Origin: Hyphomicrobiaceae bacterium
GTDB taxonomy: Bacteria; Pseudomonadota; Alphaproteobacteria; Rhizobiales; Hyphomicrobiaceae
Length of the DNA: 48,311 nt
Direction: 5' to 3'
Assembly: GCA_036555805.1 (NCBI GenBank)
Contig: DATBKR010000686.1
Span: 1 to 48,311 of the forward strand
Below are positions 4,039 to 18,607 of the stretch, one piece after another; position 1 is the first letter of the stretch, and each line of letters opens with the position of its first letter. Made by a program: the position numbers and the translations under genes. The notes beneath the pieces were generated by a model. The model was given only the letters and a program-made list of their open reading frames with translations. It did not search any database and had not been told where the DNA came from.

Positions 4039-4180
4039 GGCGCGGCGCCTCCTCGGAATGGACCGTTGTGATCGGCCGGGTATCCCCTTGCCCTTTACGT
4101 TAACTTGTTGCCAGAAGCGAGCCTCGCCCTTAACGTGCATGCATCATAGAGACCGGCCCGATACGCAGACAAGGACGGCG

Positions 4181-5878
4181 ATGGGAGAGGAGCGGCCCTG
4201 GCCCTGGGAGCGGAGCTACCCGCCCGGCGTGCGCTGGGATGCGCCTCTGGCGATTTCCACCATTCCACAGATGTTCGACGCCTTTACGGCGCAGTGGGGG
4301 CCCAAGCCGGCGCTGGAATACCGCGACCGCACGACCACCTACGCGGAGCTGCGCGCCGCCGTCGATGCCATGGCCTCGGGCCTGATGGAGCTGGGCGTTG
4401 GCCCCGGCACGGCGGTCGCGCTCTATCTGCCCAACACGCCGTATCATCCGATCGCGTTCTTCGCCGTGCTGAGGTGCGGGGGTCGTGTGGTGAACCTGTC
4501 TCCGCTGGACGCCGAACGCGAGTTGGCCTTCAAACTCAAGGATTCCGGCGCCCGCATCCTGGTGACGACCAACATCGGCTTCATGGCGCCGATGGCACTG
4601 AAACTGAAGGCCGACGGGCTCATCGACCAGCTGATCGTCGGCGACGACACCGCCTTCGGGCCCTCGGCGCTGCCCACCACGCCCATCGCCGCGGATGCGC
4701 CGGTGGTCCCCTTCGACCGGCTGCGCGAGGACGGTGCCGCCAGCCTGCCGCTCAAGTGGCCGGAGATCGACGTGGAGGGCATCGCGCTCCTGCAGTACAC
4801 CGGCGGCACCACCGGCCGGCCCAAGGGCGCGATGCTGACGCACGCCAACCTGAGCGCCACCTGCGCCATCTATAAGGCCTGGAGCGATCCACAGCGCATC
4901 TCGGCGCCCGGCGAGGACAAGGTGATCTGCGTCCTGCCGCTGTTCCATATGTACGCGCTGAGCGCGGTGATGCTGCGCTGCCTGTGCGAAGGCAACGAGC
5001 TGATGCTGCGGCCGCGCTTCGACGTGGCCACCACGCTCAACGACATCGAGGTGAAGCGCGCCACCGTCTTCCCCGGCGTGCCCACCATGTGGATCGCGCT
5101 CGCCAACGCCGCCGGCATCGAGCGGCGCGACCTCTCCTCGCTGCGCCGGGTCAGCTCGGGCGGCGCGCCGCTGCCGGTGGAGGTGGCGGAGCAGTTCCAC
5201 AGGCTTACCGGCCACCGCCTGGGCGGCGGCTGGGGCATGACGGAGACGTCGCCCGCTGGCACCACCCTGCCGCTGGAGTGGCCGCCGGGCAAGGCCGGTT
5301 CGGTGGGCCTGCCGCTGCCCGGCATCACGATGGACATTGTGTCCCTGGACGACCCGCGCCGCCGGCTGCCCCCCGGTGAGAAGGGCGAGATCCGCATCAA
5401 GGGCCCCAACGTGACCAAGGGCTATTGGAACGCGCCAGAGGAGACGGCCGCCGCCTTCATGGACGGATATCTGTTGACCGGCGACATCGGTTACATGGAC
5501 GAAGACAGCTATTTCTACTTGGTGGACCGCAAGAAGGACATGATCGTCTCCGCCGGGTTCAACGTCTATCCGCGCAGCATCGAGGAGGCGATCTACGAGC
5601 ACCCGAGCGTCGCCGAGGTGATCGTGATCGGCGTGCCCGATGCCTACCGCGGCGAGGCCGCCAAAGCGTTCGTGCGGCTCAAACCCGGCACCGGCGCCTT
5701 CACGCTCGACGAACTGCGCGCCTTCCTGGCCGACAAGCTCGGCAGGCACGAGCTGCCGGCGCACCTGGAATTCCGCGACGCCCTGCCGAAGACCGCCGTC
5801 GGCAAGCTGTCCAAGAAGGAGTTGATCGAGGAGGAGCGGCAGAAGGCCCAAGCTGCCTCCCGGTCTGCCGCCGAATAG
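4181..5878 (+). CDS. AMP-dependent acyl-CoA (dicarboxylate/fatty acid) ligase, PimA-like by context
   Basis: The track ORF 3749..5878 is trimmed to the ATG at 4181 (AAGGA upstream; [17 protein letters not shown]). AMP-binding motif [17 protein letters not shown]-terminal GKLSKKEL. Confidence 0.85.
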
Positions 5879-11854: not shown

Positions 11855-13732
11855 TCACGGCCCGTCGGCCTCAAGGGCCAGTGTCAGGCCCGCAAGCAGT
11901 CGCTCTTGAGGCTGATGCCCGTGCCTCGCCAAGCTGAACTCGACCAATCGCTGTTGGTCAGTGAGGCCAGGCGTAAGCTTGCGCAGTTCTGCGACGTGTC
12001 GGTGTGCCTCCTGCCACTCGCCAGTTAGCGCGTGCAAGGCGGCCAGGCTTGCGTGCACGTAGGGACCATGCGGGCGGGCGGCAATCGCCTCATTGAAAGC
12101 TGCCCGAGCCGCGTCCAGATGGCCCAGTTCCAGTTCGGCCCAACCCGCCCACAACTGCCAAACCGTAACGATCGATGTATCGGCATTCAAGCGCTGCGCG
12201 TAGCGGATCAGTTGAAGCGCCTCCTCGTACCTGTGCAAATTGATGAGAGCGCGTCCCTTTCCGGCGTAGGCCGGGGCATGGCTGGGATTGATCTCGAGTG
12301 CACGATCATAGCTTTCCAAAGCCGCCGAAAGGTTGCCCTCGATTCTGTGCAGGAGACCGAACCAGTAGTGCACGGCATCATTTTGCGTGTTCCGCGCGAG
12401 AGCGCGGCGCAAGAGGTCTTCGGCCTCGTTCACGTGCTGATCGCGCTCGGCCAAAAGGTAGTATGCCGCAAGGCCGATCATGGCGCCGGTAGACTCTGGA
12501 TCGCGTCGCAAGGCCTCGCTGAAAGACGCTTTGGCGCCGTTAAACAGCGGCGAGTCTTCGGTATCCAATATGCCGGCACGGCCACGTGCCACGAGGTCGC
12601 CGACGCTCGGCTCCTTGCCTGGATTGAGCGCCTCAGCTCCAACGCGTCGCATCAGCTCGAAGTGGACCGCAAACACCGTCCGTCGCACGATATCCTCTTG
12701 CGCCAAGGGCCATTTGCTCGAATCCTGGGAAAAATGATGCGACCACAGGTGCTGCCCCGAACGCGCGTCGATGACAGCTATGTTAACCCGCAGCTGGTCG
12801 CCTTCAGCGTAGACGGCCCCGACAAGAACGTAGCGAGTGCCCGTGCTGGCGCCGCTGGCTCTGACATCCGGTTGCCGGCCGGGGGAGTGCTGCGCAACAC
12901 CCTGGCTCGAAACAACTCGCAACGCATGGATCCGTGACAGGTAGTTGGTGAGGTCGGCGTTCATCCGCTCCGCCAAGCTCGCCGCGCTGCCGGACGTGGC
13001 GGTGAATGGCAGGACGGCGATAGGGATGCCGCCCGACGTTATTTGGGACGCCTGCAGGATCCCGTTTCGGGCATTGGCGTCAACCAGTGTCGGGGCGTTG
13101 TGGAGCGCAAGCCAGAAGAGACCCAGCAAGGCACTAGCCGCCAGCAGAGAGCTCCCTAACCGTCGACGATCAAAGGCCTGAAGCGCGAAAGAGGCAAAGG
13201 TGGTCGCCCGCGCCCCCTCCCCATGGGATGATGCCCGGTCACCCTTGGCAGGAGCTGATTCGACACGCGCTTCCGCGCGATCACCGGCTGCGGGTGAGGG
13301 AGCTGGCCCGTCACTCCGATCACATGGTTCTGGCAGGCGAGATTCCTCACCGACCCACTCCGTTGAGGGTGGGAGCACATTCTGGCTGCTTGCCGGCGCC
13401 CGTGTGACGGCCGCGGCCAAGAGGTAGCCGCGGCCGGGTATGGTTTTGACGATCTGCTGCCCCCGGTCGCCGAGCGCCCGGCGGATGTCACTTACACACC
13501 TGGCGATCGATTCATCGGTTACGCTCACACCCGGCCAGACCGCCTGAAACAACGCGTCCTTGGTCACGAGCCGGCCTGCGTGCTCGACGAGGCAACACAG
13601 CACGTCGAAGCTCTTCGGGCGCAACTCAACACCGCGTTCGGCGGCGCACAGAGTGCGGCGCGTCATGTCGAGGATGAAGCCCTCGAACTCGTACACCCTT
13701 TCATAGACTGCATCCATGAACGCAACCGACAA
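11855..13732 (-). CDS. Membrane-anchored transcriptional regulator: N-terminal OmpR/CadC-type winged helix, TM segment, TolB-N-like domain, C-terminal TPR repeats
   Basis: 625 aa. The wHTH is YEFEGFILDMTRRTLCAAERGVELRPKSFDVLCCLVEHAGRLVTKDALFQAVWPGV...IPGRGYLL. The hydrophobic segment is LLAASALLGLFWLAL. Then IAVLPF...YVLVGAVYAEGDQLRVNIAVIDARSGQHLW. The C-terminal part has several TPR-like A/Y/L repeats. Confidence 0.8.
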   Translation of the reverse strand: MSVAFMDAVYERVYEFEGFILDMTRRTLCAAERGVELRPKSFDVLCCLVEHAGRLVTKDALFQAVWPGVSVTDESIARCVSDIRRALGDRGQQIVKTIPGRGYLLAAAVTRAPASSQNVLPPSTEWVGEESRLPEPCDRSDGPAPSPAAGDRAEARVESAPAKGDRASSHGEGARATTFASFALQAFDRRRLGSSLLAASALLGLFWLALHNAPTLVDANARNGILQASQITSGGIPIAVLPFTATSGSAASLAERMNADLTNYLSRIHALRVVSSQGVAQHSPGRQPDVRASGASTGTRYVLVGAVYAEGDQLRVNIAVIDARSGQHLWSHHFSQDSSKWPLAQEDIVRRTVFAVHFELMRRVGAEALNPGKEPSVGDLVARGRAGILDTEDSPLFNGAKASFSEALRRDPESTGAMIGLAAYYLLAERDQHVNEAEDLLRRALARNTQNDAVHYWFGLLHRIEGNLSAALESYDRALEINPSHAPAYAGKGRALINLHRYEEALQLIRYAQRLNADTSIVTVWQLWAGWAELELGHLDAARAAFNEAIAARPHGPYVHASLAALHALTGEWQEAHRHVAELRKLTPGLTDQQRLVEFSLARHGHQPQERLLAGLTLALEADGP

Positions 13733-14007
13733 CTGGCACGCTGCCTTGCGACATCTCTTTCAGAAATTTTCACCCCTAGAGCAGGCGCGCTTTCACACGC
13801 TTTCAGGACGCTCGGCGTCCAGTCTGGCAGCATCGCATGCGAGGAGCACCGGAGCAATGGTGTACGTGCTGCCTGGGGGTAGTCGTATCCGGCTGGTGAC
13901 GCATCGCAACGGGTCCGCCACCTCGATCCAGGACGTGGTGACGTGAAGTCATAGGTAGCCGACCGCGGCAGCCCCTCAGGCAGTCTACGACCATAAGGCA
14001 AATTTGC

Positions 14008-14319
14008 ATGAGTGAGAGGATCAGACCGGAACAGCGGCCGGCAAGCGCGCGCCGAGCGGCGCTTCCCGTTCTCGTACTGGTGGCGTTTGGCTGCGCAGTG
14101 GCCACCATCCTGCCGGTCCCGGACGCCGAAGCACGCGGGCCCGGATCCTGGCAGCCCTATCATACCTGGCGGGTCAAAGGGAGCAGTCCGGCAGCACGCT
14201 TATTCCCCTTGAAACGCCAGCGCGTCCCTAAAAGCTCCTACTACCAGACCGGTATTGGCGAGAAGGCCGTCAAAGGAGGGAGCCCGGCGGCTAACGTCTT
14301 CAGGCCACACTCACAATGA
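14008..14319 (+). CDS. Small secreted basic protein with an internal duplication (hypothetical)
   Basis: 103 aa. AAGG lies 9 nt upstream of the ATG. The signal-like N-terminus is RRAALPVLVLVAFGCAVATILPVPDAEA. The duplicated segments are VKGSSPAARLF and VKGGSPAANVF. Its stop overlaps the next start (ATGA at 14316-14319). Confidence 0.45.
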   Translation: MSERIRPEQRPASARRAALPVLVLVAFGCAVATILPVPDAEARGPGSWQPYHTWRVKGSSPAARLFPLKRQRVPKSSYYQTGIGEKAVKGGSPAANVFRPHSQ

Positions 14320-15500
14320 ACGGTCCGCTGGGCATACGCGTGAGATCAGCCCGCCAACGCGGCCGTGCGGTTAGCCCTTGGGCCCGATGGCGTCCGATCA
14401 GTACGTGGTCGAGACTTATAATCGTTGTGATAGCGAGCTCTCTCGCAATGCGCGCGCTGGCGGGCGATGACGCCGTCGACCCGCGGTATCCAGGCCGGTA
14501 TTGCTTTTGGTACGGATCGTGCCCGTTCTCTGGGGCGGGGCGGGGAGAATGCCCCGCTCCGTACCAGGATCCAGGCATTGTACCCGATGTGGTGTTCGGC
14601 AAGCCGCAAAGTCTTCTTTGGGGTACAGAGCGTCTCTGCGCAGGGTGGGGATGGAAAAACCTCTGCTGCGAGCCACTGGGTTCTGTCTCGCAGGATGAAA
14701 AAGCGTCAACGCCGCCGCCCAGTCACCCTGCAAACGTGCCAATCACGATCACTCCGCGACCAGCAGACCGCTCCCCGGCGTTGGATCAACCTGTAGACAG
14801 GCTGATCGGCCCCCATCCCGCAGACGGCCGCCCCCCCCTGAGTCAACCTTCCAGCGCACCAATCACCGTCTATCCGGCAGATCCCTCCTCATTGGATCTG
14901 CCCGTGCGCAAGGTCATCGGCGCTCATCCGACAGACGACGGGTCGGCGTCGGTTCAGCCTGCGAATAGGCCTACCGGCGTCTATCCAAAGGAACCGAGCG
15001 GCCCTGTGGTGAAGCCCGGCGGCCCCTATCAAGCCTATCCCAGCGGCCCTTCCGCACATGGTCTGCCGCCGTTCGGCCAATCCGTAAGCACGCCGATCGG
15101 GCCCCATCCCGCTGGAATTCCCAGCGCGCCCGGCGGCGGATTCGATGCGTCTAAGAATCTGCCGCCCTTCGGTCAGCCCGGGAGTCAGCCCGGGAGCATG
15201 CCATTTGGCTCCGCCGCCAATCCCCTGCCCAAGGCACCCGATGGCGTTGCAGTGAGCACGCAGGGGAACGCGAACAAGTCACCAGGCACAATGACGACAA
15301 ATACAGGCGGCATCTATCAAGTGCATCCAGGCGGCACCGCGCTAAACGGCTCCAAGGGTATTTCGGTGAAGAAGGATCAATCCACGAAACTTGGAAAATC
15401 TCCCGGTGCTGCTACGGGCCCCTTGCGCAGGCGGAATTCGATGAGCCATCGGAACCGCTGGCGGGCTGCCATGAGGCGATACCGGTCTGCGCATCACTAG
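14316..15500 (+). CDS. Secreted Cys-rich / Pro-rich repeat protein (hypothetical)
   Basis: 394 aa. Hydrophobic segment LIIVVIASSLAMRALA-GD. A six-Cys module runs from YCFWYGSCPF to NLCCE. Three degenerate repeats are marked by IGPHPADG, IGAHPTDD and IGPHPAGI, encoded with different synonymous codons. The C-terminal tail is very basic. Confidence 0.5.
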   Translation: MNGPLGIRVRSARQRGRAVSPWARWRPISTWSRLIIVVIASSLAMRALAGDDAVDPRYPGRYCFWYGSCPFSGAGRGECPAPYQDPGIVPDVVFGKPQSLLWGTERLCAGWGWKNLCCEPLGSVSQDEKASTPPPSHPANVPITITPRPADRSPALDQPVDRLIGPHPADGRPPLSQPSSAPITVYPADPSSLDLPVRKVIGAHPTDDGSASVQPANRPTGVYPKEPSGPVVKPGGPYQAYPSGPSAHGLPPFGQSVSTPIGPHPAGIPSAPGGGFDASKNLPPFGQPGSQPGSMPFGSAANPLPKAPDGVAVSTQGNANKSPGTMTTNTGGIYQVHPGGTALNGSKGISVKKDQSTKLGKSPGAATGPLRRRNSMSHRNRWRAAMRRYRSAHH

Positions 15501-15573
15501 GACGTGTTGAGTTCGTGCGACGCAATTCTCATTGCGACCTGCCGCACTCCGAATTCCCACTCTGGAGCTGAGC

Positions 15574-16698
15574 ATGCCGGCATCCAAAATTGTTCTCGCG
15601 GTCGGCCTCTTGCTCGCTGTCGCGTTCACGCCAGCGATTGCCCAAACATCGAGTACCGGCCCGACGCCACCAGGGCGGGGGCAGCAGCCCGAGCTGTCTG
15701 TCGCCCAATTCGCCTGCCCGAGGGGCACGCAAGTCTTGCTGCTGATCGAGCAAGGCAACGTTCCAGCCTATCTGGTCGTCGATGAACTGCCGGCGCCGGG
15801 ACAAGGAACCGGGAGGCGCCTGGATGCCAGAACGGTGTCTCCCAATGAGATGCCGGTTACGCTTGATCTCACCTCGCTGGTTGGGGATCTGGACGTGCGG
15901 GTTCTGGTGCGAGATCGCACGGCCGATCAAAGCAACCGCAAGGACATCCAGGCGAACCTGGCCGGCTATATCGGCTGCGGCCAGTGGCAGGCACGCATCG
16001 CCGGGGGCCAGCCGGCCGCATTCCTGCTGAAGCGGGCCCAGCAATCGCAATCGAGCACTCCCGCGCCCGCGGCTCCCACACCAACGGCTCCCACGCCTGT
16101 AGCTCCAGCGCCGGTCACTTCGGCGCCGGTGGCCCCAGCGCCGGTGAGCCGGGCCGAGAATATCGCCAATGGAAAGCTGACGTACCGCGGCTTCACGGTC
16201 GATGTAGCCGCGATCAGAAGCTCGCAGGAGCGCGATGCAATCATCGCCTCCCTCCAACATCAGATCGACATTGCTGCGGACTGCGGCGCCAAGCAGGACG
16301 TGCTTCATTTCTTTCAGAGCCAGGAAATAGTCGTGAGGAGCGACCTGCGCGACCCGTATGGTCACTTCGACAAGCGCGGAGTGTCAATCAAGGCCGCCGT
16401 GGCAGCCCCGCAAAAACCGATTGTCCTCCATGAGCTGCTTCACGCCTTCCACTTCAAGGTGATGTCCGGCCGTTTCCGGAATGCCGAGATCCTCAAATTC
16501 TACAATCGGGCGAAGTACAACCGGTTCTACCCGGAAGACGCGTATGTGTTGAAGAATGTGCTGGAATTCTTCGCGGTGACCGCGAGCCTCTATCTGTGGG
16601 GTCACGTCGATCGTGAACCGTATACACGCGAAAAGCTGAAGGCCATTCAACCGATCTACTACGCGTGGCTGGGAGAGCTGTTCGGTGTGAGGAAATGA
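15574..16698 (+). CDS. Secreted two-domain protein with a C-terminal HExxH...E (gluzincin-like) putative metallopeptidase domain
   Basis: The track ORF 15532..16698 is trimmed to the ATG at 15574 (GGAG 6 nt upstream). Signal peptide MPASKIVLAVGLLLAVAFTPAIA-Q. A P/A/T linker is encoded at about 16057-16146. HELLH is at 16429-16443 within VLHELLHAFHF. The Glu of LEFFAV is at 16564-16566. Confidence 0.65.
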   Translation: MPASKIVLAVGLLLAVAFTPAIAQTSSTGPTPPGRGQQPELSVAQFACPRGTQVLLLIEQGNVPAYLVVDELPAPGQGTGRRLDARTVSPNEMPVTLDLTSLVGDLDVRVLVRDRTADQSNRKDIQANLAGYIGCGQWQARIAGGQPAAFLLKRAQQSQSSTPAPAAPTPTAPTPVAPAPVTSAPVAPAPVSRAENIANGKLTYRGFTVDVAAIRSSQERDAIIASLQHQIDIAADCGAKQDVLHFFQSQEIVVRSDLRDPYGHFDKRGVSIKAAVAAPQKPIVLHELLHAFHFKVMSGRFRNAEILKFYNRAKYNRFYPEDAYVLKNVLEFFAVTASLYLWGHVDREPYTREKLKAIQPIYYAWLGELFGVRK

Positions 16699-17416
16699 TG
16701 GCACGCGGCGCGCGCAATCGACTCTCGTCCGCTTGCGCGGCTGCGCGTGGAGGAGGCGCCAGGCACCGTTGTCCGGTCTGACGGCGCGGTGCTCGCGCCT
16801 TTCGCAGAGGTCGGAAGACGTCCTGCTTTTTTGATCGATTGGGCGCTGGCGTACCTGCGCCGGGCCGGCTTGCGCACCGCCCCGCCTGGCGCCAAGTCGG
16901 GCTTTTCTTGGCGGTGCTCGGTGCCAGCGTGGTCGCGGGCCCAGGGGGCCGGACGGGCCGACGAGGTCGATGTCGCCGTGGATGCGTTCGTCGCGGGCGG
17001 GGCGCTGGTCGGCATCGGCATCGGGCCGAACGAGGAGCGACGAGGACCGGACTGACGTGAGCCTGCTGACCGTCCAGCCGATCATCAATGCCTCAGCAAG
17101 CGAACCACATCACGACCATGTGATCACGCGTCGGAAGGTCACAGAGAACGATCCTCGGCTTCCCGTCGCGCATGCGGCGCGGGGCCACTCACACTTCGTG
17201 CCGGATTCGGTCGTGAGCAAACACAGCAAGGGGCGTACTCGATCACTCGAGAACTCACTTGACCACCTCCTCGGCGCGCCGGCACAGCGCGGGTTGTTGC
17301 CTCCAATACTTGACAGGATATGACAGGCGCAGTTCGAATGGGTGGATAAAGCCTCGGGAACGGACTGATCCGCCACAAAAGTCCGTCGTTAGAACAATAA
17401 CTCAGGGGAGGGTTCC

Positions 17417-18607
17417 ATGACCCAACGGGCAATGCGCGCCGGCCTGGTGGCGCTCGCTTTCCTTCTCATGTTCGCGCCGGCGCCCAGCCGGGCCCAGAAT
17501 AAGGAGGTGCTGGTCGGCGGGGCGATCTCGCTGACCGGTCGCTTCGCGGAGCCCGCGGGCCGGCAGGTGAATGCCATCAAGATGTGGGTCGAGGAGGTCA
17601 ACGGCCGCGGAGGCCTGCTTGGCCGCAAGATCAAGCTGCTGCTCCTCGACGACAAGTCGGACACCCAGACCGCCGTCAAGCTCTACGAGAAGCTCATCAC
17701 AGAGGACAAGGTCGAGGTGCTCCTCGCCCCCTACTCGAGCGCGATCACCGAGGCGGTGGCCAACATCAACGAGCGCTACAAGATGCCATTCGTCGCCTAC
17801 GGCGCCTCGTCGAGCCCCATCTGGGAGAAGGGCCGCAAGTACATCTTCAGCATCGTCGCCGTCGCCGAGGACTACCAGAAGGGCGCTGTGCACCTCGCCA
17901 AGCAGATCGGCGTGAGCAAAGTTGCCATCATCGGCGAGGACAGCCTCTTTCCGCGGCAGGCCGGCGTCGGCGCCAAGCGGTGGGCAGACAAGCTCGGCAT
18001 CCAGGTCGTCCTCCAGGAGAATTACCCCCAAAAGCAGACCGACTTCACCGCCCTGCTGCAGAAGATCAAGGCCTCCGGCGCCGAGGCGGTCCTGTCGAAC
18101 AGCTACTTCGCCGATGCGGCGGCCCAATTGCGGCAGATGCGCGAGCTGAACCTGAACTTTAAGCTCTACTCCAGCACGATCGGTCCGAGCCTGCCGAACT
18201 TCCCCGAGCAACTCGGCGGCACCGCCGAGTACGTGCTGGGCTTCAGCCAGTGGGAGCCGATCCCGGACGTTCTGAAGCTTCCCGGCATGAGGGAGTTCAT
18301 CGCCGACTACGAGAAGCGCTTCGGCGAGAAGCCCAACTACCATGCCGGCAGCGCCTACGGCGCGCTCCAGGTGACCGAGGCGGCGCTCAAGGAGGCCGGC
18401 AGCTTCGACCAGGAGAAGTTGCGTGAGGCCCTCGCCACCATCGAGGTCACGACCGTGTTCGGACGCTACAAGGCTAACGCCAAGGGGATGAACGAGCACG
18501 AGGGCCTGACATTCCAGATCCTTGGTGGCAAGCGGCTCACGGTTTTTCCCGAGAAATGGGCCGAGACGAAGGCCAAGCTCCCCGCGCCCGACTGGAACAA
18601 GCGGTAG
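17417..18607 (+). CDS. ABC transporter substrate-binding protein, LivK/Peripla_BP_6 (branched-chain amino acid-type) family
   Basis: 396 aa. Signal peptide ...LLMFAPAPSRA-Q. Then VGGAISLTGRFAEPAGRQVNAIKMWVEEVNGRGGLLGRKIKLLLLDDKSD. GGGGAGGG lies upstream of the ATG. Confidence 0.9.
   Translation: MTQRAMRAGLVALAFLLMFAPAPSRAQNKEVLVGGAISLTGRFAEPAGRQVNAIKMWVEEVNGRGGLLGRKIKLLLLDDKSDTQTAVKLYEKLITEDKVEVLLAPYSSAITEAVANINERYKMPFVAYGASSSPIWEKGRKYIFSIVAVAEDYQKGAVHLAKQIGVSKVAIIGEDSLFPRQAGVGAKRWADKLGIQVVLQENYPQKQTDFTALLQKIKASGAEAVLSNSYFADAAAQLRQMRELNLNFKLYSSTIGPSLPNFPEQLGGTAEYVLGFSQWEPIPDVLKLPGMREFIADYEKRFGEKPNYHAGSAYGALQVTEAALKEAGSFDQEKLREALATIEVTTVFGRYKANAKGMNEHEGLTFQILGGKRLTVFPEKWAETKAKLPAPDWNKR

What the first reader, a model, noticed from the sequence alone, without database searches (positions are those of the whole stretch)
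15574..16698. Secreted protein with a toxin-like gluzincin signature: HELLHAFH plus EFFA 45 residues downstream
Seen in the sequence: a cleavable-looking signal peptide (..AFTPAIA-Q), an N-terminal domain of about 125 aa containing two Cys, and a P/A/T linker (TPAPAAPTPTAPTPVAPAPVTSAPVAPAPV). The C-terminal domain of about 180 aa contains VLHELLHAFHF (HELLH at 16429-16443) and NVLEFFAVTASLY (Glu codon at 16564-16566), which places the Glu 45 residues after the first His. From memory of established families: HExxH plus a downstream Glu defines gluzincins. The HELxHxxH context is what I recall for clostridial neurotoxin light chains (HELIHAGH, M27) and the type III effector NleD (HELLH, M91). 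A third-ligand Glu inside EFFA is what I recall for anthrax lethal factor (H686/H690/E735 in EFFAEAF, M34) and MtfA (M90). Inference: this is a small LF/MtfA/NleD-like endopeptidase domain fused to an unknown secreted N-domain. That is unusual for a free-living, rhizobial-type genome, and it lies next to two odd secreted proteins.
Basis: partly seen in the sequence, partly recalled or inferred. Interest (0 to 1): 0.7.

Follow-up and report, generated by a model that had tools for sequence, protein, structure and literature searches.

The report
Secreted PPEP-like zinc protease cassette
This gene encodes a secreted, modular zinc protease whose nearest solved relatives are the proline-proline-cutting enzymes of Firmicutes, and because it always sits right after a proline-rich secreted protein it is probably a protease-substrate pair of a kind not yet described in Gram-negative soil bacteria.

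Summary
ORF 15574..16698 (+) encodes 374 aa: a Sec signal peptide, a two-Cys N-domain, a Pro/Ala/Thr linker, and a C-domain with HELLH (16429-16443) and Glu331 (16564-16566) 45 residues later. These residues are conserved in more than 110 homologues.

The domain is an M34 (anthrax LF / Pro-Pro endopeptidase) type gluzincin. The evidence is a sub-threshold Pfam ATLF match, a profile match to PPEP-2 (E 2.5e-8), hhalign 95% against a PPEP profile, and a pLDDT-94.6 model whose top 13 PDB matches are all PPEPs. M27, M90, M91 and DUF4157 gave no hit.

It is not toxin-like, and it is not rare in rhizobia: short forms occur in many Bradyrhizobium species. It lacks the PPEP S-loop signature (0/115 members against 26/26 PPEPs), so it is a sister family and not a PPEP.

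The new finding concerns the Pro-rich neighbour (14316..15500). All four of its known homologues sit immediately upstream of a protease of this family. All partners carry repeated PP-[FLIV]-[GS]-Q motifs. My best reading is a protease-substrate cassette analogous to PPEP-1/CD2831. The cleavage is inferred, not shown.

The parts
15574..16698 (+). Whole gene for the modular secreted M34-like zinc endopeptidase (374 aa plus stop).
   Evidence: ORF and translation. The same gene is called on independent contigs. 219 homologues were found.
15564..15567 (+). GGAG Shine-Dalgarno-like sequence 6 nt before the ATG at 15574. It favours this start over the TTG at 15532.
   Evidence: Read directly from the sequence.
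15574..15642 (+). Sec-type signal peptide, MPASKIVLAVGLLLAVAFTPAIA, with cleavage expected after AIA.
   Evidence: Sequence features. The same feature is seen in close homologues. No dedicated predictor was run.
15643..16035 (+). N-terminal module, residues 24-154. It is mostly beta, has a conserved Cys pair (C48, C135), and ends in GYIGCGxWQARIxxGxPxxFLLKR. It is a rare mobile domain with no Pfam or PDB relative.
   Evidence: AF2 pLDDT is ~80-87 for residues 40-115 and low for 122-161. Only 11 representatives exist among 1.84 billion proteins. It is fused elsewhere to PDZ, to Zn_peptidase PF04228, or to unknown domains. No PDB hit.
16036..16149 (+). Pro/Ala/Thr-rich linker, residues 155-192. 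It contains no Pro-Pro dipeptide.
   Evidence: Sequence. Low pLDDT. Its length and sequence vary among full-length homologues.
16150..16695 (+). Catalytic domain, residues 193-374, of M34 / ATLF-like fold. The nearest solved structures are PPEP-2, PPEP-3 and PPEP-1.
   Evidence: AF2 pLDDT 94.6, pTM 0.91. Foldseek top 13 hits are all PPEPs; 6fpc_A has E 7.3e-5 and TM 0.58 over 190 columns. Profile against PDB gives E 2.5e-8 to 6fpc. hhalign against a PPEP profile gives Prob 95.2%. Pfam ATLF scores 19.6 bits against a cut-off of 27.4.
16429..16443 (+). HELLH zinc-binding and catalytic motif: H286 and H290 as ligands, E287 as general base.
   Evidence: H286 and E287 are invariant and H290 is conserved in at least 90%. 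They align to H142/E143/H146 of PPEP-1.
16543..16575 (+). YVLKNVLEFFA. Y324 is the predicted oxyanion-stabilising Tyr. E331 (16564-16566) is the predicted third zinc ligand.
   Evidence: These align to Y178 and E185 of PPEP-1 and to Y174 and the equivalent Glu of PPEP-2. Y-x6-E[FY]FA is present in 112/115 members. The role of the Tyr is taken from PMC12828418.
16597..16629 (+). WGHVDREPYTR, a family-specific conserved insertion after the Glu-bearing helix. W342, G343, R347, P349 and R352 are invariant. PPEPs lack it.
   Evidence: Alignments. It appears as a 5-6-residue gap in PPEP-1 and PPEP-2.
14316..15500 (+). Partner gene encoding a secreted Pro-rich protein (394 aa). It has a signal peptide (residues 1-49), a six-Cys domain (50-122), a Pro-rich region with PP motifs, a conserved C-terminal part (GGIYQVHPGG) and a basic tail (RWRAAMRRYRSAHH). 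It is the proposed substrate.
   Evidence: Only 4 homologues are known. The Cys-rich domain and the RPPxxQPS motif are invariant. Every homologue lies directly upstream of a protease of this family.
14829..14852 (+). RPPLSQPS, the best-conserved Pro-Pro motif of the partner protein. R172, P173, P174, Q177, P178 and S179 are invariant in all 5 homologues. It is a candidate cleavage site.
15063..15083 (+). LPPFGQS, the second PP-Phi-G-Q motif.
15159..15179 (+). LPPFGQP, the third PP-Phi-G-Q motif.
14008..14319 (+). Small secreted protein (103 aa), the first gene of the cassette. Its stop overlaps the partner's start (ATGA). It contains two G-x-P-A-A-x-x-F repeats. Its function is unknown.
   Evidence: ORF. 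Gene call. Homologues occupy the same position in L045, L046, L048 and L049. No Pfam hit.
11855..13717 (-). Divergently transcribed regulator (OmpR-type winged helix, TolB_N-like region and TPR). It belongs to the same low-GC3 block and is a possible regulator of the cassette.
   Evidence: Pfam Trans_reg_C at 5.4e-16 plus TPR families. GC3 is 0.71, like the cassette and unlike the flanks. The regulatory link is inferred from position only.

Best explanation
The gene encodes a Sec-exported, three-part zinc endopeptidase.

Catalytic domain (residues 193-374). It has the anthrax-LF / Pro-Pro-endopeptidase (MEROPS M34) fold and catalytic set: His286 and His290 of HELLH plus Glu331 bind zinc, Glu287 is the general base, and Tyr324 stabilises the transition state. 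It belongs to a previously uncharacterised sister family of the Firmicute PPEPs. That family is common in Bradyrhizobium and other soil Alphaproteobacteria and lacks the PPEP S-loop.

Cassette. In this lineage the protease is the last gene of a three-gene cassette: small secreted protein, then Pro-rich secreted protein, then protease. I propose that the protease cuts the co-encoded Pro-rich protein at its repeated, conserved PP-[FLIV]-[GS]-Q motifs (RPPLSQPS, LPPFGQS, LPPFGQP). That would separate the six-Cys N-terminal domain from the basic C-terminal tail, as PPEP-1 and PPEP-2 release adjacent-encoded surface proteins.

N-terminal module. This rare two-Cys domain, tethered by a P/A/T linker, probably localises the enzyme or recruits substrate.

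What is shown: domain architecture, fold, conserved catalytic residues, conserved gene pairing, motif recurrence.
What is inferred: metal binding, proteolytic activity, the identity of the substrate, and the cleavage at Pro-Pro.
For: Catalytic domain:
- phmmer to PPEP-2 6fpc, E 3.7e-4.
- Family profile to 6fpc, E 2.5e-8.
- hhalign against a profile of 26 PPEPs, Prob 95.2%, E 2.6e-8.
- AF2 pLDDT 94.6.
- Foldseek top 13 PDB hits are all PPEP-2/3/1 over ~190 columns, TM 0.5-0.62, followed by anthrax LF.
- H286/E287/H290/Y324/E331 align to H142/E143/H146/Y178/E185 of PPEP-1. They are invariant or conserved in at least 90% of more than 110 homologues.
- 17/25 members hit Pfam ATLF at E<=0.01.

Gene pairing:
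- The Pro-rich protein has only four homologues in 5.8 billion clusters. Each is followed immediately by a protease of this family: L045 and L046 carry the window-type N-domain; L043 and L044 carry a different 273-aa form only 42-45% identical in the catalytic domain.
- A further lineage, L048 (protease 59% identical), has a different 596-aa secreted partner in the same position. It has the same PPF[GS]Q motifs, a basic C-tail, and the small-protein homologue upstream.

Motif:
- PP[FLIV][GSTV][QE] occurs 2-4 times in each of six partner proteins, against 0.02 expected from shuffles.
- RPPxxQPS is invariant in all five homologues.
- Some family members carry similar motifs (PPAYGQ, PPAASQPS) in their own N-terminal extensions.

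Precedent: the PPEP-1 and PPEP-2 substrates are encoded next to the protease and carry repeated Pro-Pro sites. Only a subgroup of Paenibacillus PPEPs has the adjacent substrate (PMC8610288).
Against: - The PPEP S-loop supplies residues that enclose the P1/P1' prolines and is important for catalysis (PMC12828418). Its signature (P[RK]GW, TWD) is absent in 0/115 members. The segment from the preceding strand to HExxH is 35 residues, against 64 in PPEP-1. Pro-Pro specificity therefore cannot be carried over from PPEPs.
- The candidate sites are PP-Phi-[GS], not the P|P-X-P of known PPEPs.
- The sequence similarity covers only the C-terminal half of the domain.
- Most family members have no Pro-rich neighbour: 39 genome loci and about 75 metagenome loci.
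- The pairing rests on perhaps three independent lineages. The motif pattern was defined after looking at the data.
- A PPEP-like protein, CD1597, showed no proteolytic activity (PMC11460543).
- No c-di-GMP riboswitch is present.
- I could not read model coordinates, so the His/His/Glu geometry was not measured.
Confidence: 0.5

Rival explanations
1. It is a general periplasmic or extracellular housekeeping metalloprotease, for nutrient acquisition or protein turnover. It has no dedicated relationship to the Pro-rich neighbour, and the adjacency reflects co-inheritance of a small acquired island.
For: Most homologues are stand-alone ~210-aa proteins with Tat or Sec signals and varied neighbours. 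The regulator, small gene, partner and protease form one low-GC3 block (0.65-0.73 against 0.81-0.94 in the flanks), consistent with joint acquisition.
Against: The pairing persists where the protease has diverged to 42-45% identity and has a different N-terminal extension (L043, L044). It also persists where the partner has a different N-terminal domain but the same PP motifs (L048). No partner homologue was found without an adjacent protease.
Confidence: 0.25
2. The neighbours are not substrates but modulators. The small 103-aa protein or the Pro-rich protein is an inhibitor, chaperone or anchoring partner of the protease. The PP-Phi-G-Q motifs are binding sites, for example for the N-terminal module, and not cleavage sites.
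For: The small protein is conserved in the cassette and in L049 lies directly upstream of the protease without the partner. The N-module is fused elsewhere to PDZ domains, which are peptide-binding modules, and to another peptidase. This suggests a role in protein-protein targeting.
Against: L043 and L044 keep the partner-protease pair but lack both the window-type small protein and the N-module. No similarity to any known protease inhibitor was found.
Confidence: 0.12
3. It is an LF/NleD/BoNT-like toxin or effector that is delivered into, or acts on, cells of another organism.
For: It has the M34 fold shared with anthrax lethal factor. The cassette lies in a compositionally atypical block.
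Against: LF ranks below all PPEPs (E ~0.05 against 7e-5). There are no Pfam hits to M27, M91 or M90. Only Sec or Tat signals are present. No secretion-system, receptor-binding or translocation component lies in the neighbourhood. The family is widespread in free-living soil bacteria.
Confidence: 0.05
4. It is a catalytically silent PPEP-like protein, as reported for C. difficile CD1597, that serves a structural or binding role.
For: CD1597 has a PPEP-like domain but showed no proteolysis (PMC11460543). The family lacks the S-loop that matters for PPEP catalysis.
Against: All catalytic residues (H, E, H, Y, E) are under strong conservation across more than 110 members. This is not expected for a pseudo-enzyme.
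Confidence: 0.06

Closest known systems
Pro-Pro endopeptidases PPEP-1 (Zmp1/CD2830, C. difficile), PPEP-2 (P. alvei) and PPEP-3 (G. thermodenitrificans); MEROPS M34, EC 3.4.24.89
   Same: - They are small secreted single-domain zincins with an alpha/beta N-subdomain, an HExxH helix and a helical C-subdomain.
- The Tyr lies 7 residues before the Glu ligand in an E[FY]FA helix.
- They are the best sequence and structure matches.
- A Pro-rich secreted protein with repeated Pro-Pro motifs is encoded next door, and only a subgroup has this adjacent partner.
   Different: - No S-loop: the P[RK]GW...TWDD signature is absent and the segment is ~29 residues shorter.
- There is an extra conserved WGxVDRxPxxR insertion.
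- Identity is only 14-20% and TM ~0.58.
- The hosts are Gram-negative, whereas PPEPs were reported only in Clostridia and Bacilli (PMC8610288).
- The candidate sites are PP-Phi-[GS]-Q, not P|P-X-P.
- There is no sortase or SLH anchor on the partner and no c-di-GMP riboswitch.
- This copy has an added N-terminal module and linker.
Anthrax lethal factor catalytic domain (M34; Pfam ATLF PF07737)
   Same: It has the same fold class and the same H-E-x-x-H ... Y-x6-E catalytic arrangement. ATLF is the only Pfam family hit. Foldseek TM is ~0.5.
   Different: The Pfam match is below the gathering threshold for this protein (19.6 against 27.4 bits). LF is a 776-aa four-domain toxin delivered by protective antigen, and nothing comparable is present here. 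LF ranks below every PPEP structure.
Uncharacterised proteobacterial M34 homologues, such as the Vibrio cholerae M34 peptidase used as outgroup in PMC8610288
   Same: They show that M34-type domains exist in Proteobacteria without known function.
   Different: I did not compare sequences with that protein. The present family is defined by its own conserved motifs (YRGFTVD, HQIDIVADCGA, EFFAVTASLYLWGxVDR).

Membership tests
Gluzincins (HExxH plus downstream Glu ligand) | An HExxH motif on one helix and a Glu third ligand on a later helix, both conserved in homologues. | tested here: met
   HELLH is at residues 286-290 and E331 lies 45 residues after H286. H286, E287 and E331 are invariant and H290 is conserved in at least 90%. 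The motif pair occurs in 113/115 members. Both lie on predicted helices, 283-295 and 329-342.
Gluzincins (HExxH plus downstream Glu ligand) | The two His and the Glu converge on one metal site in three dimensions, and zinc is bound. | not testable with these tools
The feature is implied only by alignment to the PPEP-1/2 ligands and by high pLDDT.
MEROPS M34 / Pfam ATLF (PF07737) | A match to the curated family model at its gathering score. | tested here: inconclusive
   The window protein scores 17.5-19.6 bits against a cut-off of 27.4 (E 8e-4 to 3e-3). 17/25 family members match at E<=0.01, best 2e-6. A minority of the listed homologues carry a precomputed PF07737 hit.
MEROPS M34 / Pfam ATLF (PF07737) | A catalytic Tyr 7 residues N-terminal to the Glu ligand (LF Y728/E735 from memory; PPEP-1 Y178/E185; PPEP-3 Y190/E197). 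| tested here: met
   Y324 and E331 are present. Y-x6-E[FY]FA occurs in 112/115 members. Y324 aligns to Y178 of PPEP-1. The PPEP numbering comes from PMC12828418.
MEROPS M34 / Pfam ATLF (PF07737) | Whole-domain fold similarity to solved M34 structures. | tested here: met
   Foldseek of the pLDDT-94.6 model gives PPEP-2, PPEP-3 and PPEP-1 as the top 13 hits (E 7e-5 to 3e-3, ~190 aligned columns, TM 0.5-0.62). Anthrax LF follows. The profile-profile probability is 95.2%.
[quoted passage not shown] | An S-loop carrying the conserved P-[RK]-G-W/Y ... T-W-D-D residues that enclose the P1/P1' prolines and close over the substrate. | tested here: not met
   P[RK]GW, TWD and W-x6-W occur in 0/115 family members. 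TWD occurs in 26/26 PPEPs. The strand-to-HExxH distance is 35 residues against 64 in PPEP-1. The role of the S-loop is taken from PMC12828418.
[quoted passage not shown] | A diverting loop just before the active-site helix that forces a double-kinked substrate. | tested here: inconclusive
   A loop of similar length (AVAAPQKP; P279, K281 and P282 conserved) precedes the helix. It shows no sequence similarity to GHD/GHG of PPEPs, and no coordinates were available to compare.
[quoted passage not shown] | Homology at the threshold used to define the family (E<1e-25 to PPEP-1 or PPEP-2), with Firmicute distribution. | tested here: not met
   The best single-sequence E-value to PPEP-2 is 3.7e-4. 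The search with PPEP-1 returned named hits only from Clostridia and Bacilli, and no member of this family. The threshold comes from PMC8610288.
[quoted passage not shown] | A substrate encoded next to the protease, carrying repeated P|P-X-P sites. | tested here: inconclusive
   The adjacent Pro-rich partner is conserved with the protease in about three lineages and carries repeated PP motifs. The motif is PP-Phi-[GS]-Q (P3' is not Pro), and cleavage is untested.
[quoted passage not shown] | A c-di-GMP riboswitch in the 5' UTR of the protease or substrate (PPEP-1 and PPEP-2 only). | tested here: not met
   Rfam gave no match at gathering score in the whole window. No riboswitch was found at E<=1 in 13500-17500.
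[quoted passage not shown] | Hydrolysis of a Pro-Pro peptide bond. | not testable with these tools
   This needs enzyme assays with the partner protein, FRET peptides or combinatorial peptide libraries.
M27 (clostridial neurotoxin), M91 (NleD), M90 (MtfA), DUF4157 | A match to the respective Pfam models. | tested here: not met
   No hit to any of these was found at E<=10, for the full protein or for the C-domain alone. None appears among the top Foldseek PDB hits.

The most novel reading that the evidence does not exclude
This is a Gram-negative counterpart of the PPEP system. An S-loop-less M34 protease family would recognise and cut Pro-Pro-containing PP-[FLIV]-[GS]-Q repeats in a co-encoded secreted protein. 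That would release a six-Cys domain from a basic-tailed stalk, a proteolytic switch for a surface or matrix protein in soil Rhizobiales. The rare two-Cys N-module would act as a portable targeting domain shared with PDZ proteins and other peptidases. This would take Pro-Pro endopeptidase biology outside Firmicutes and show a second structural solution for cleaving at di-proline.
Probability: 0.3. Interest if true: 0.7.

Novelty: new variant of a known kind. Interest (0 to 1): 0.52.

Why it matters
Pro-Pro endopeptidases are prized for an almost unique bond specificity. They are used as tools, for example in a C. difficile sensor and in engineered living materials (titles seen). They are described only from Firmicutes (PMC8610288).

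A distant sister family with its own conserved, motif-bearing partner gives a directly testable enzyme-substrate pair in Gram-negative soil bacteria. It could give a new cleavage specificity. It also gives a functional handle on a hypothetical protein conserved across Bradyrhizobium.

In addition, the work defines three uncharacterised protein modules: the N-module, the six-Cys Pro-rich partner, and the small cassette protein.

If the protease turns out to be a generic enzyme, the finding reduces to annotating a conserved hypothetical as an M34-like peptidase.

Tried and rejected
- Full-length two-domain model in Foldseek. It gave only weak E-values: PPEP-3 at 6.6e-3, and SUN-domain hits to the N-domain at TM 0.27. 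I re-ran with the catalytic domain alone. I do not trust the SUN-like hits.
- Pro-rich neighbours around 39 genome loci. None were found. All-against-all clustering of neighbours showed only Bradyrhizobium-specific synteny (MscS-like channel, MBL-fold hydrolase, PPK2, ABC transporter) with no obvious functional link. The ABC genes near the window copy are only 30-48% identical to the Bradyrhizobium ones, so they are paralogues and give neither synteny nor taxonomy.
- Metagenome scan with the partner alignment. It found nothing. The second scan, with the protease, supplied L047-L049.
- DNA for the contigs of P0002 and P0005 was unavailable. Their upstream genes (125 aa; a 620-bp gap) could not be inspected.
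- NCBIfam gave no hit. Pfam gave no hit for the partner, the small protein, the L043-type protease or the L048 partner. PDB profile searches of the partner and the N-module found nothing.
- The promoter and terminator scan found nothing above shuffle expectation.
- Literature searches found no description of this family or of Gram-negative PPEPs.
- I considered a cysteine-switch pro-segment (YIGCGQW). I dropped it because both Cys are conserved as a pair in the N-module even when it is fused to non-protease domains, which points to a disulfide instead.
- Sequence alignment of the N-terminal half of the catalytic domain to PPEPs failed. The absence of the S-loop therefore rests on the motif and length test.
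Full report
**1. Observation**

ORF 15532..16698 (+) exists. The ATG at 15574 is the likely start, because GGAG sits 6 nt upstream. Independent gene calls on other metagenome contigs use the same start. The 374-aa product has these parts:
- Signal peptide MPASKIVLAVGLLLAVAFTPAIA|Q, residues 1-23.
- An N-terminal region, residues 24-154, with two Cys (C48, C135).
- A P/A/T linker, residues 155-192.
- A C-terminal domain containing HELLH (residues 286-290, nt 16429-16443) and YVLKNVLEFFA, with Glu331 at nt 16564-16566, 45 residues after His286.

The motifs are not chance. In alignments of 118 and 115 sequences, H286, E287 and E331 are invariant, and H290, H293 and Y324 are conserved in at least 90%. 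113/115 members have HE..H followed by E[FY]FA.

**2. What the catalytic domain is**

- Pfam gives only a sub-threshold ATLF (anthrax lethal factor, PF07737) match: 19.6 bits against a cut-off of 27.4. There is no match to M27, M90, M91 or DUF4157 even at E<=10. NCBIfam gives nothing.
- Against PDB sequences, the single best hit is Pro-Pro endopeptidase PPEP-2 (6fpc, E 3.7e-4). This improves to E 2.5e-8 with the family profile.
- Profile-profile comparison with 26 Firmicute PPEPs gives Prob 95.2%, E 2.6e-8.
- An AlphaFold model of residues 190-374 is confident (pLDDT 94.6, pTM 0.91). Its 13 best PDB matches are all PPEP-2, PPEP-3 or PPEP-1, with ~190 aligned columns, TM 0.5-0.62 and 14-20% identity. 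Anthrax LF follows at E ~0.05.
- The alignment equates H286/E287/H290 with H142/E143/H146 of PPEP-1, Y324 with the catalytic Y178, and E331 with the third ligand E185. I recalled the PPEP-1 sequence from memory and verified it as 100% identical to 2n6j_A.

The domain is therefore an M34-type gluzincin. The BoNT, NleD and MtfA associations were not.

**3. Why it is not a PPEP proper**

PPEP specificity and catalysis depend on the S-loop. P100, K101, W103 and W110 of PPEP-1 enclose the P1/P1' prolines (PMC12828418). In my PPEP alignment these residues are invariant or nearly so.
- The signature is absent from all 115 family members. TWD occurs in 0/115 against 26/26 PPEPs.
- The segment between the preceding beta-strand and HExxH is 35 residues, against 64 in PPEP-1.
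- The family has its own invariant insertion, W-G-x-V-D-R-x-P-x-x-R, after the Glu-bearing helix.
- Sequence similarity is confined to the C-terminal half of the domain.
- PPEPs as defined in the literature (E<1e-25) occur only in Clostridia and Bacilli (PMC8610288). A search with PPEP-1 returned no member of this family.

I therefore class it as a sister family within the M34/ATLF-like fold.

**4. Distribution**

The family has at least 219 detectable members.
- Most are ~210-aa proteins made of a signal peptide and the catalytic domain. 58 of 107 with an intact N-terminus carry a twin-arginine motif.
- Genome hits include at least 15 Bradyrhizobium species or strains and many Alphaproteobacteria MAGs. 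There are also Eremiobacterota/Vulcanimicrobiota MAGs, one Obscuribacterales MAG and a record titled Frankia sp. RB7.
- Named proteins are all called 'hypothetical'. I found no literature on the family.
- A 90%-identity cluster mate of a neighbouring gene comes from a Hyphomicrobiaceae MAG, which suggests the window is from a Hyphomicrobiales organism.

**5. The gene cassette**

Upstream on the same strand lie a 103-aa secreted protein (14008..14319) and a 394-aa Pro-rich secreted protein (14316..15500). The stop of the first overlaps the start of the second.

The Pro-rich protein is real. It has four homologues with an invariant six-Cys domain (DPRYPGRYCFWYGSCP...ECPAPY...GWKNLCCEPLG), a Pro-rich middle, a conserved C-terminal part and a basic tail.

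In every one of the four loci the next gene is a protease of this family:
- L045 and L046 carry the window-type N-domain.
- L043 and L044 carry a 273-aa form with a lipoprotein-like signal and a different N-extension. Its catalytic domain is only 42-45% identical to the window's.

Three more loci add to the picture:
- L048 (protease 59% identical, same N-module) has a different 596-aa secreted protein in the partner position. It has another Cys-rich head but the same LPPFSQP, PPPFGQS and PPPFVPP motifs, a basic tail, and the small-protein homologue upstream.
- L047 (short protease, 70% identical) is preceded by a weak match to the partner's C-terminus.
- L049 is a deletion variant in which the partner's signal peptide is fused to the protease linker.

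The motif PP[FLIV][GSTV][QE] occurs 2-4 times in each of six partners, against 0.02 expected from shuffles. This pattern was chosen post hoc. RPPxxQPS is invariant in all five homologues.

Most family members have no such neighbour. The same is true of the Paenibacillus PPEPs, where only group A has the adjacent substrate VMSP (PMC8610288).

The regulator, small gene, partner and protease share a GC3 of 0.65-0.73, against 0.81-0.94 in flanking genes. This suggests a jointly acquired 4.9-kb block.

**6. The N-terminal module**

Residues 24-154 are predicted as a beta-rich domain (pLDDT ~80-87 for residues 40-115). A search of 1.84 billion representatives finds only 11 relatives. In these, the module (CPxGTQ[IV]L...GYIGCGxWQARI...FLLKR) is followed by a Pro-rich linker and then one of:
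- this peptidase;
- a PDZ domain (P0128, P0129);
- a PF04228 zinc peptidase (P0131);
- an unknown domain, or nothing.

There is no Pfam or PDB relative. It is a portable module, most plausibly for localisation or substrate recruitment. The conserved Cys pair suggests a disulfide.

**7. Mechanism proposed**

Both proteins are exported by Sec. The protease uses H286/H290/E331-bound zinc, E287 as base and Y324 as oxyanion stabiliser. This is established M34 chemistry, inferred here from alignment. I propose that it cuts the partner within its PP-Phi-[GS]-Q repeats and separates the Cys-rich head from the basic tail.

My confidence that it is an active M34-like zinc endopeptidase is about 0.85. 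My confidence that the partner is its physiological substrate is about 0.45. My confidence that the scissile bond is Pro-Pro is about 0.3.

Arguments against:
- The S-loop is missing.
- The candidate sites are not P|P-X-P.
- Independent lineages are few.
- The PPEP-like protein CD1597 showed no proteolytic activity.
- There is no c-di-GMP riboswitch.
- The metal-site geometry in the model could not be measured.

**8. Verdict**

The protein is not a toxin homologue of special rarity. It is a modular member of an uncharacterised M34 sister family.

The conserved protease / Pro-rich-partner cassette is a new variant of the PPEP paradigm in Gram-negative soil bacteria, and it is directly testable. 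Interest is moderate.

Noticed in passing
window 15643-16035; proteins P0126-P0135: The N-terminal two-Cys module is a rare portable domain: 11 representatives among 1.84 billion proteins. It always sits N-terminal and is followed by a Pro-rich linker. It is fused to PDZ domains, to a PF04228 zinc peptidase, to unknown domains, or stands alone. It has no Pfam or PDB relative.
   Followed up: partly
L049:763-1515 compared with L048:1087-4064: L049 looks like a natural deletion or recombination variant of the L048 cassette. The signal peptide of the 596-aa partner (MRSRSQLTRASGLGAI...PAKAE) is fused in frame to the protease linker and catalytic domain (95% identical). The partner body and the protease N-module are lost. 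An assembly artefact is not excluded.
   Followed up: partly
window 11855-16698: The regulator, the small gene, the Pro-rich gene and the protease form a block with GC3 of 0.65-0.73. Flanking metabolic and ABC-transporter genes have GC3 of 0.81-0.94. This suggests horizontal acquisition or distinct expression. No tRNA or mobile-element search was done.
   Followed up: partly
window 14008-14319; L045:293-553; L046:1-129; L048:783-1061; L049:465-728: The small secreted protein of the cassette is conserved across lineages. It carries two copies of a G-x-P-[AG]-A-x-x-F-[RP] motif (GSSPAARLFP..., GGSPAANVFRP). It has no Pfam hit. It could be an inhibitor, a chaperone or another substrate.
   Followed up: partly
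proteins P0014, P0016, P0013, P0017, P0023, P0052: Some family members carry Pro/Gln-rich N-terminal extensions with motifs resembling those of the partner proteins: QPPAYGQQ, APVYGQQ and QPPVYG repeats, or LPPAASQPS just before the catalytic domain. 6/112 N-regions match PP.{1,2}[GS]Q[PSQA], against 0.37 expected. Four of the six are close relatives. They may be pro-segments or self-cleavage sites.
   Followed up: partly
family alignment A4 (N-termini of short homologues, e.g. L008:5911-6534): 58 of 107 homologues with an intact N-terminus have a twin-arginine motif (e.g. MTSPDRRRILL...). This suggests Tat export of a folded, possibly metal-loaded enzyme. The window copy has a Sec-type signal instead.
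   Followed up: partly
L043:2288-3646 and 4064-4414; L044:243-1598 and 1996-2346: In the L043/L044 lineage the partner-protease pair is preceded by two genes. One is a conserved 452-aa protein of unknown function. The other is a 116-aa secreted protein made of Arg/Asp/Asn-rich repeats (RGDVRQFNRDNRRLGQDRQQFRNDR...). A Peptidase_C14 (caspase-like) gene lies downstream in L043.
   Followed up: no
loci L010, L012, L021, L023, L027, L029, L030: Family members with 46-56% identity occur outside Alphaproteobacteria: in Eremiobacterota/Vulcanimicrobiota (WPS-2) MAGs, in an Obscuribacterales MAG, and in a record titled Frankia sp. RB7. The neighbourhood of the Frankia record matches Bradyrhizobium synteny, which suggests contamination or mislabelling. 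The other cases suggest horizontal transfer among soil bacteria.
   Followed up: no
window 11855-13717 (-): A large regulator-like protein has an OmpR/PhoB-type winged-helix DNA-binding domain, a TolB_N-like segment and C-terminal TPR repeats. It is transcribed divergently from the cassette. The exact sequence is absent from the protein collection, although the gene is called on sister contigs.
   Followed up: no
L008-L020, L033, L038-L041 (Bradyrhizobium loci): In Bradyrhizobium the short protease gene has conserved synteny. An MscS-like mechanosensitive channel (784 aa) lies upstream on the opposite strand. Downstream come an MBL-fold hydrolase-like gene, a polyphosphate kinase 2-like gene and a branched-chain amino-acid ABC transporter. 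I identified these gene products by eye from the translations. No functional link is evident.
   Followed up: partly
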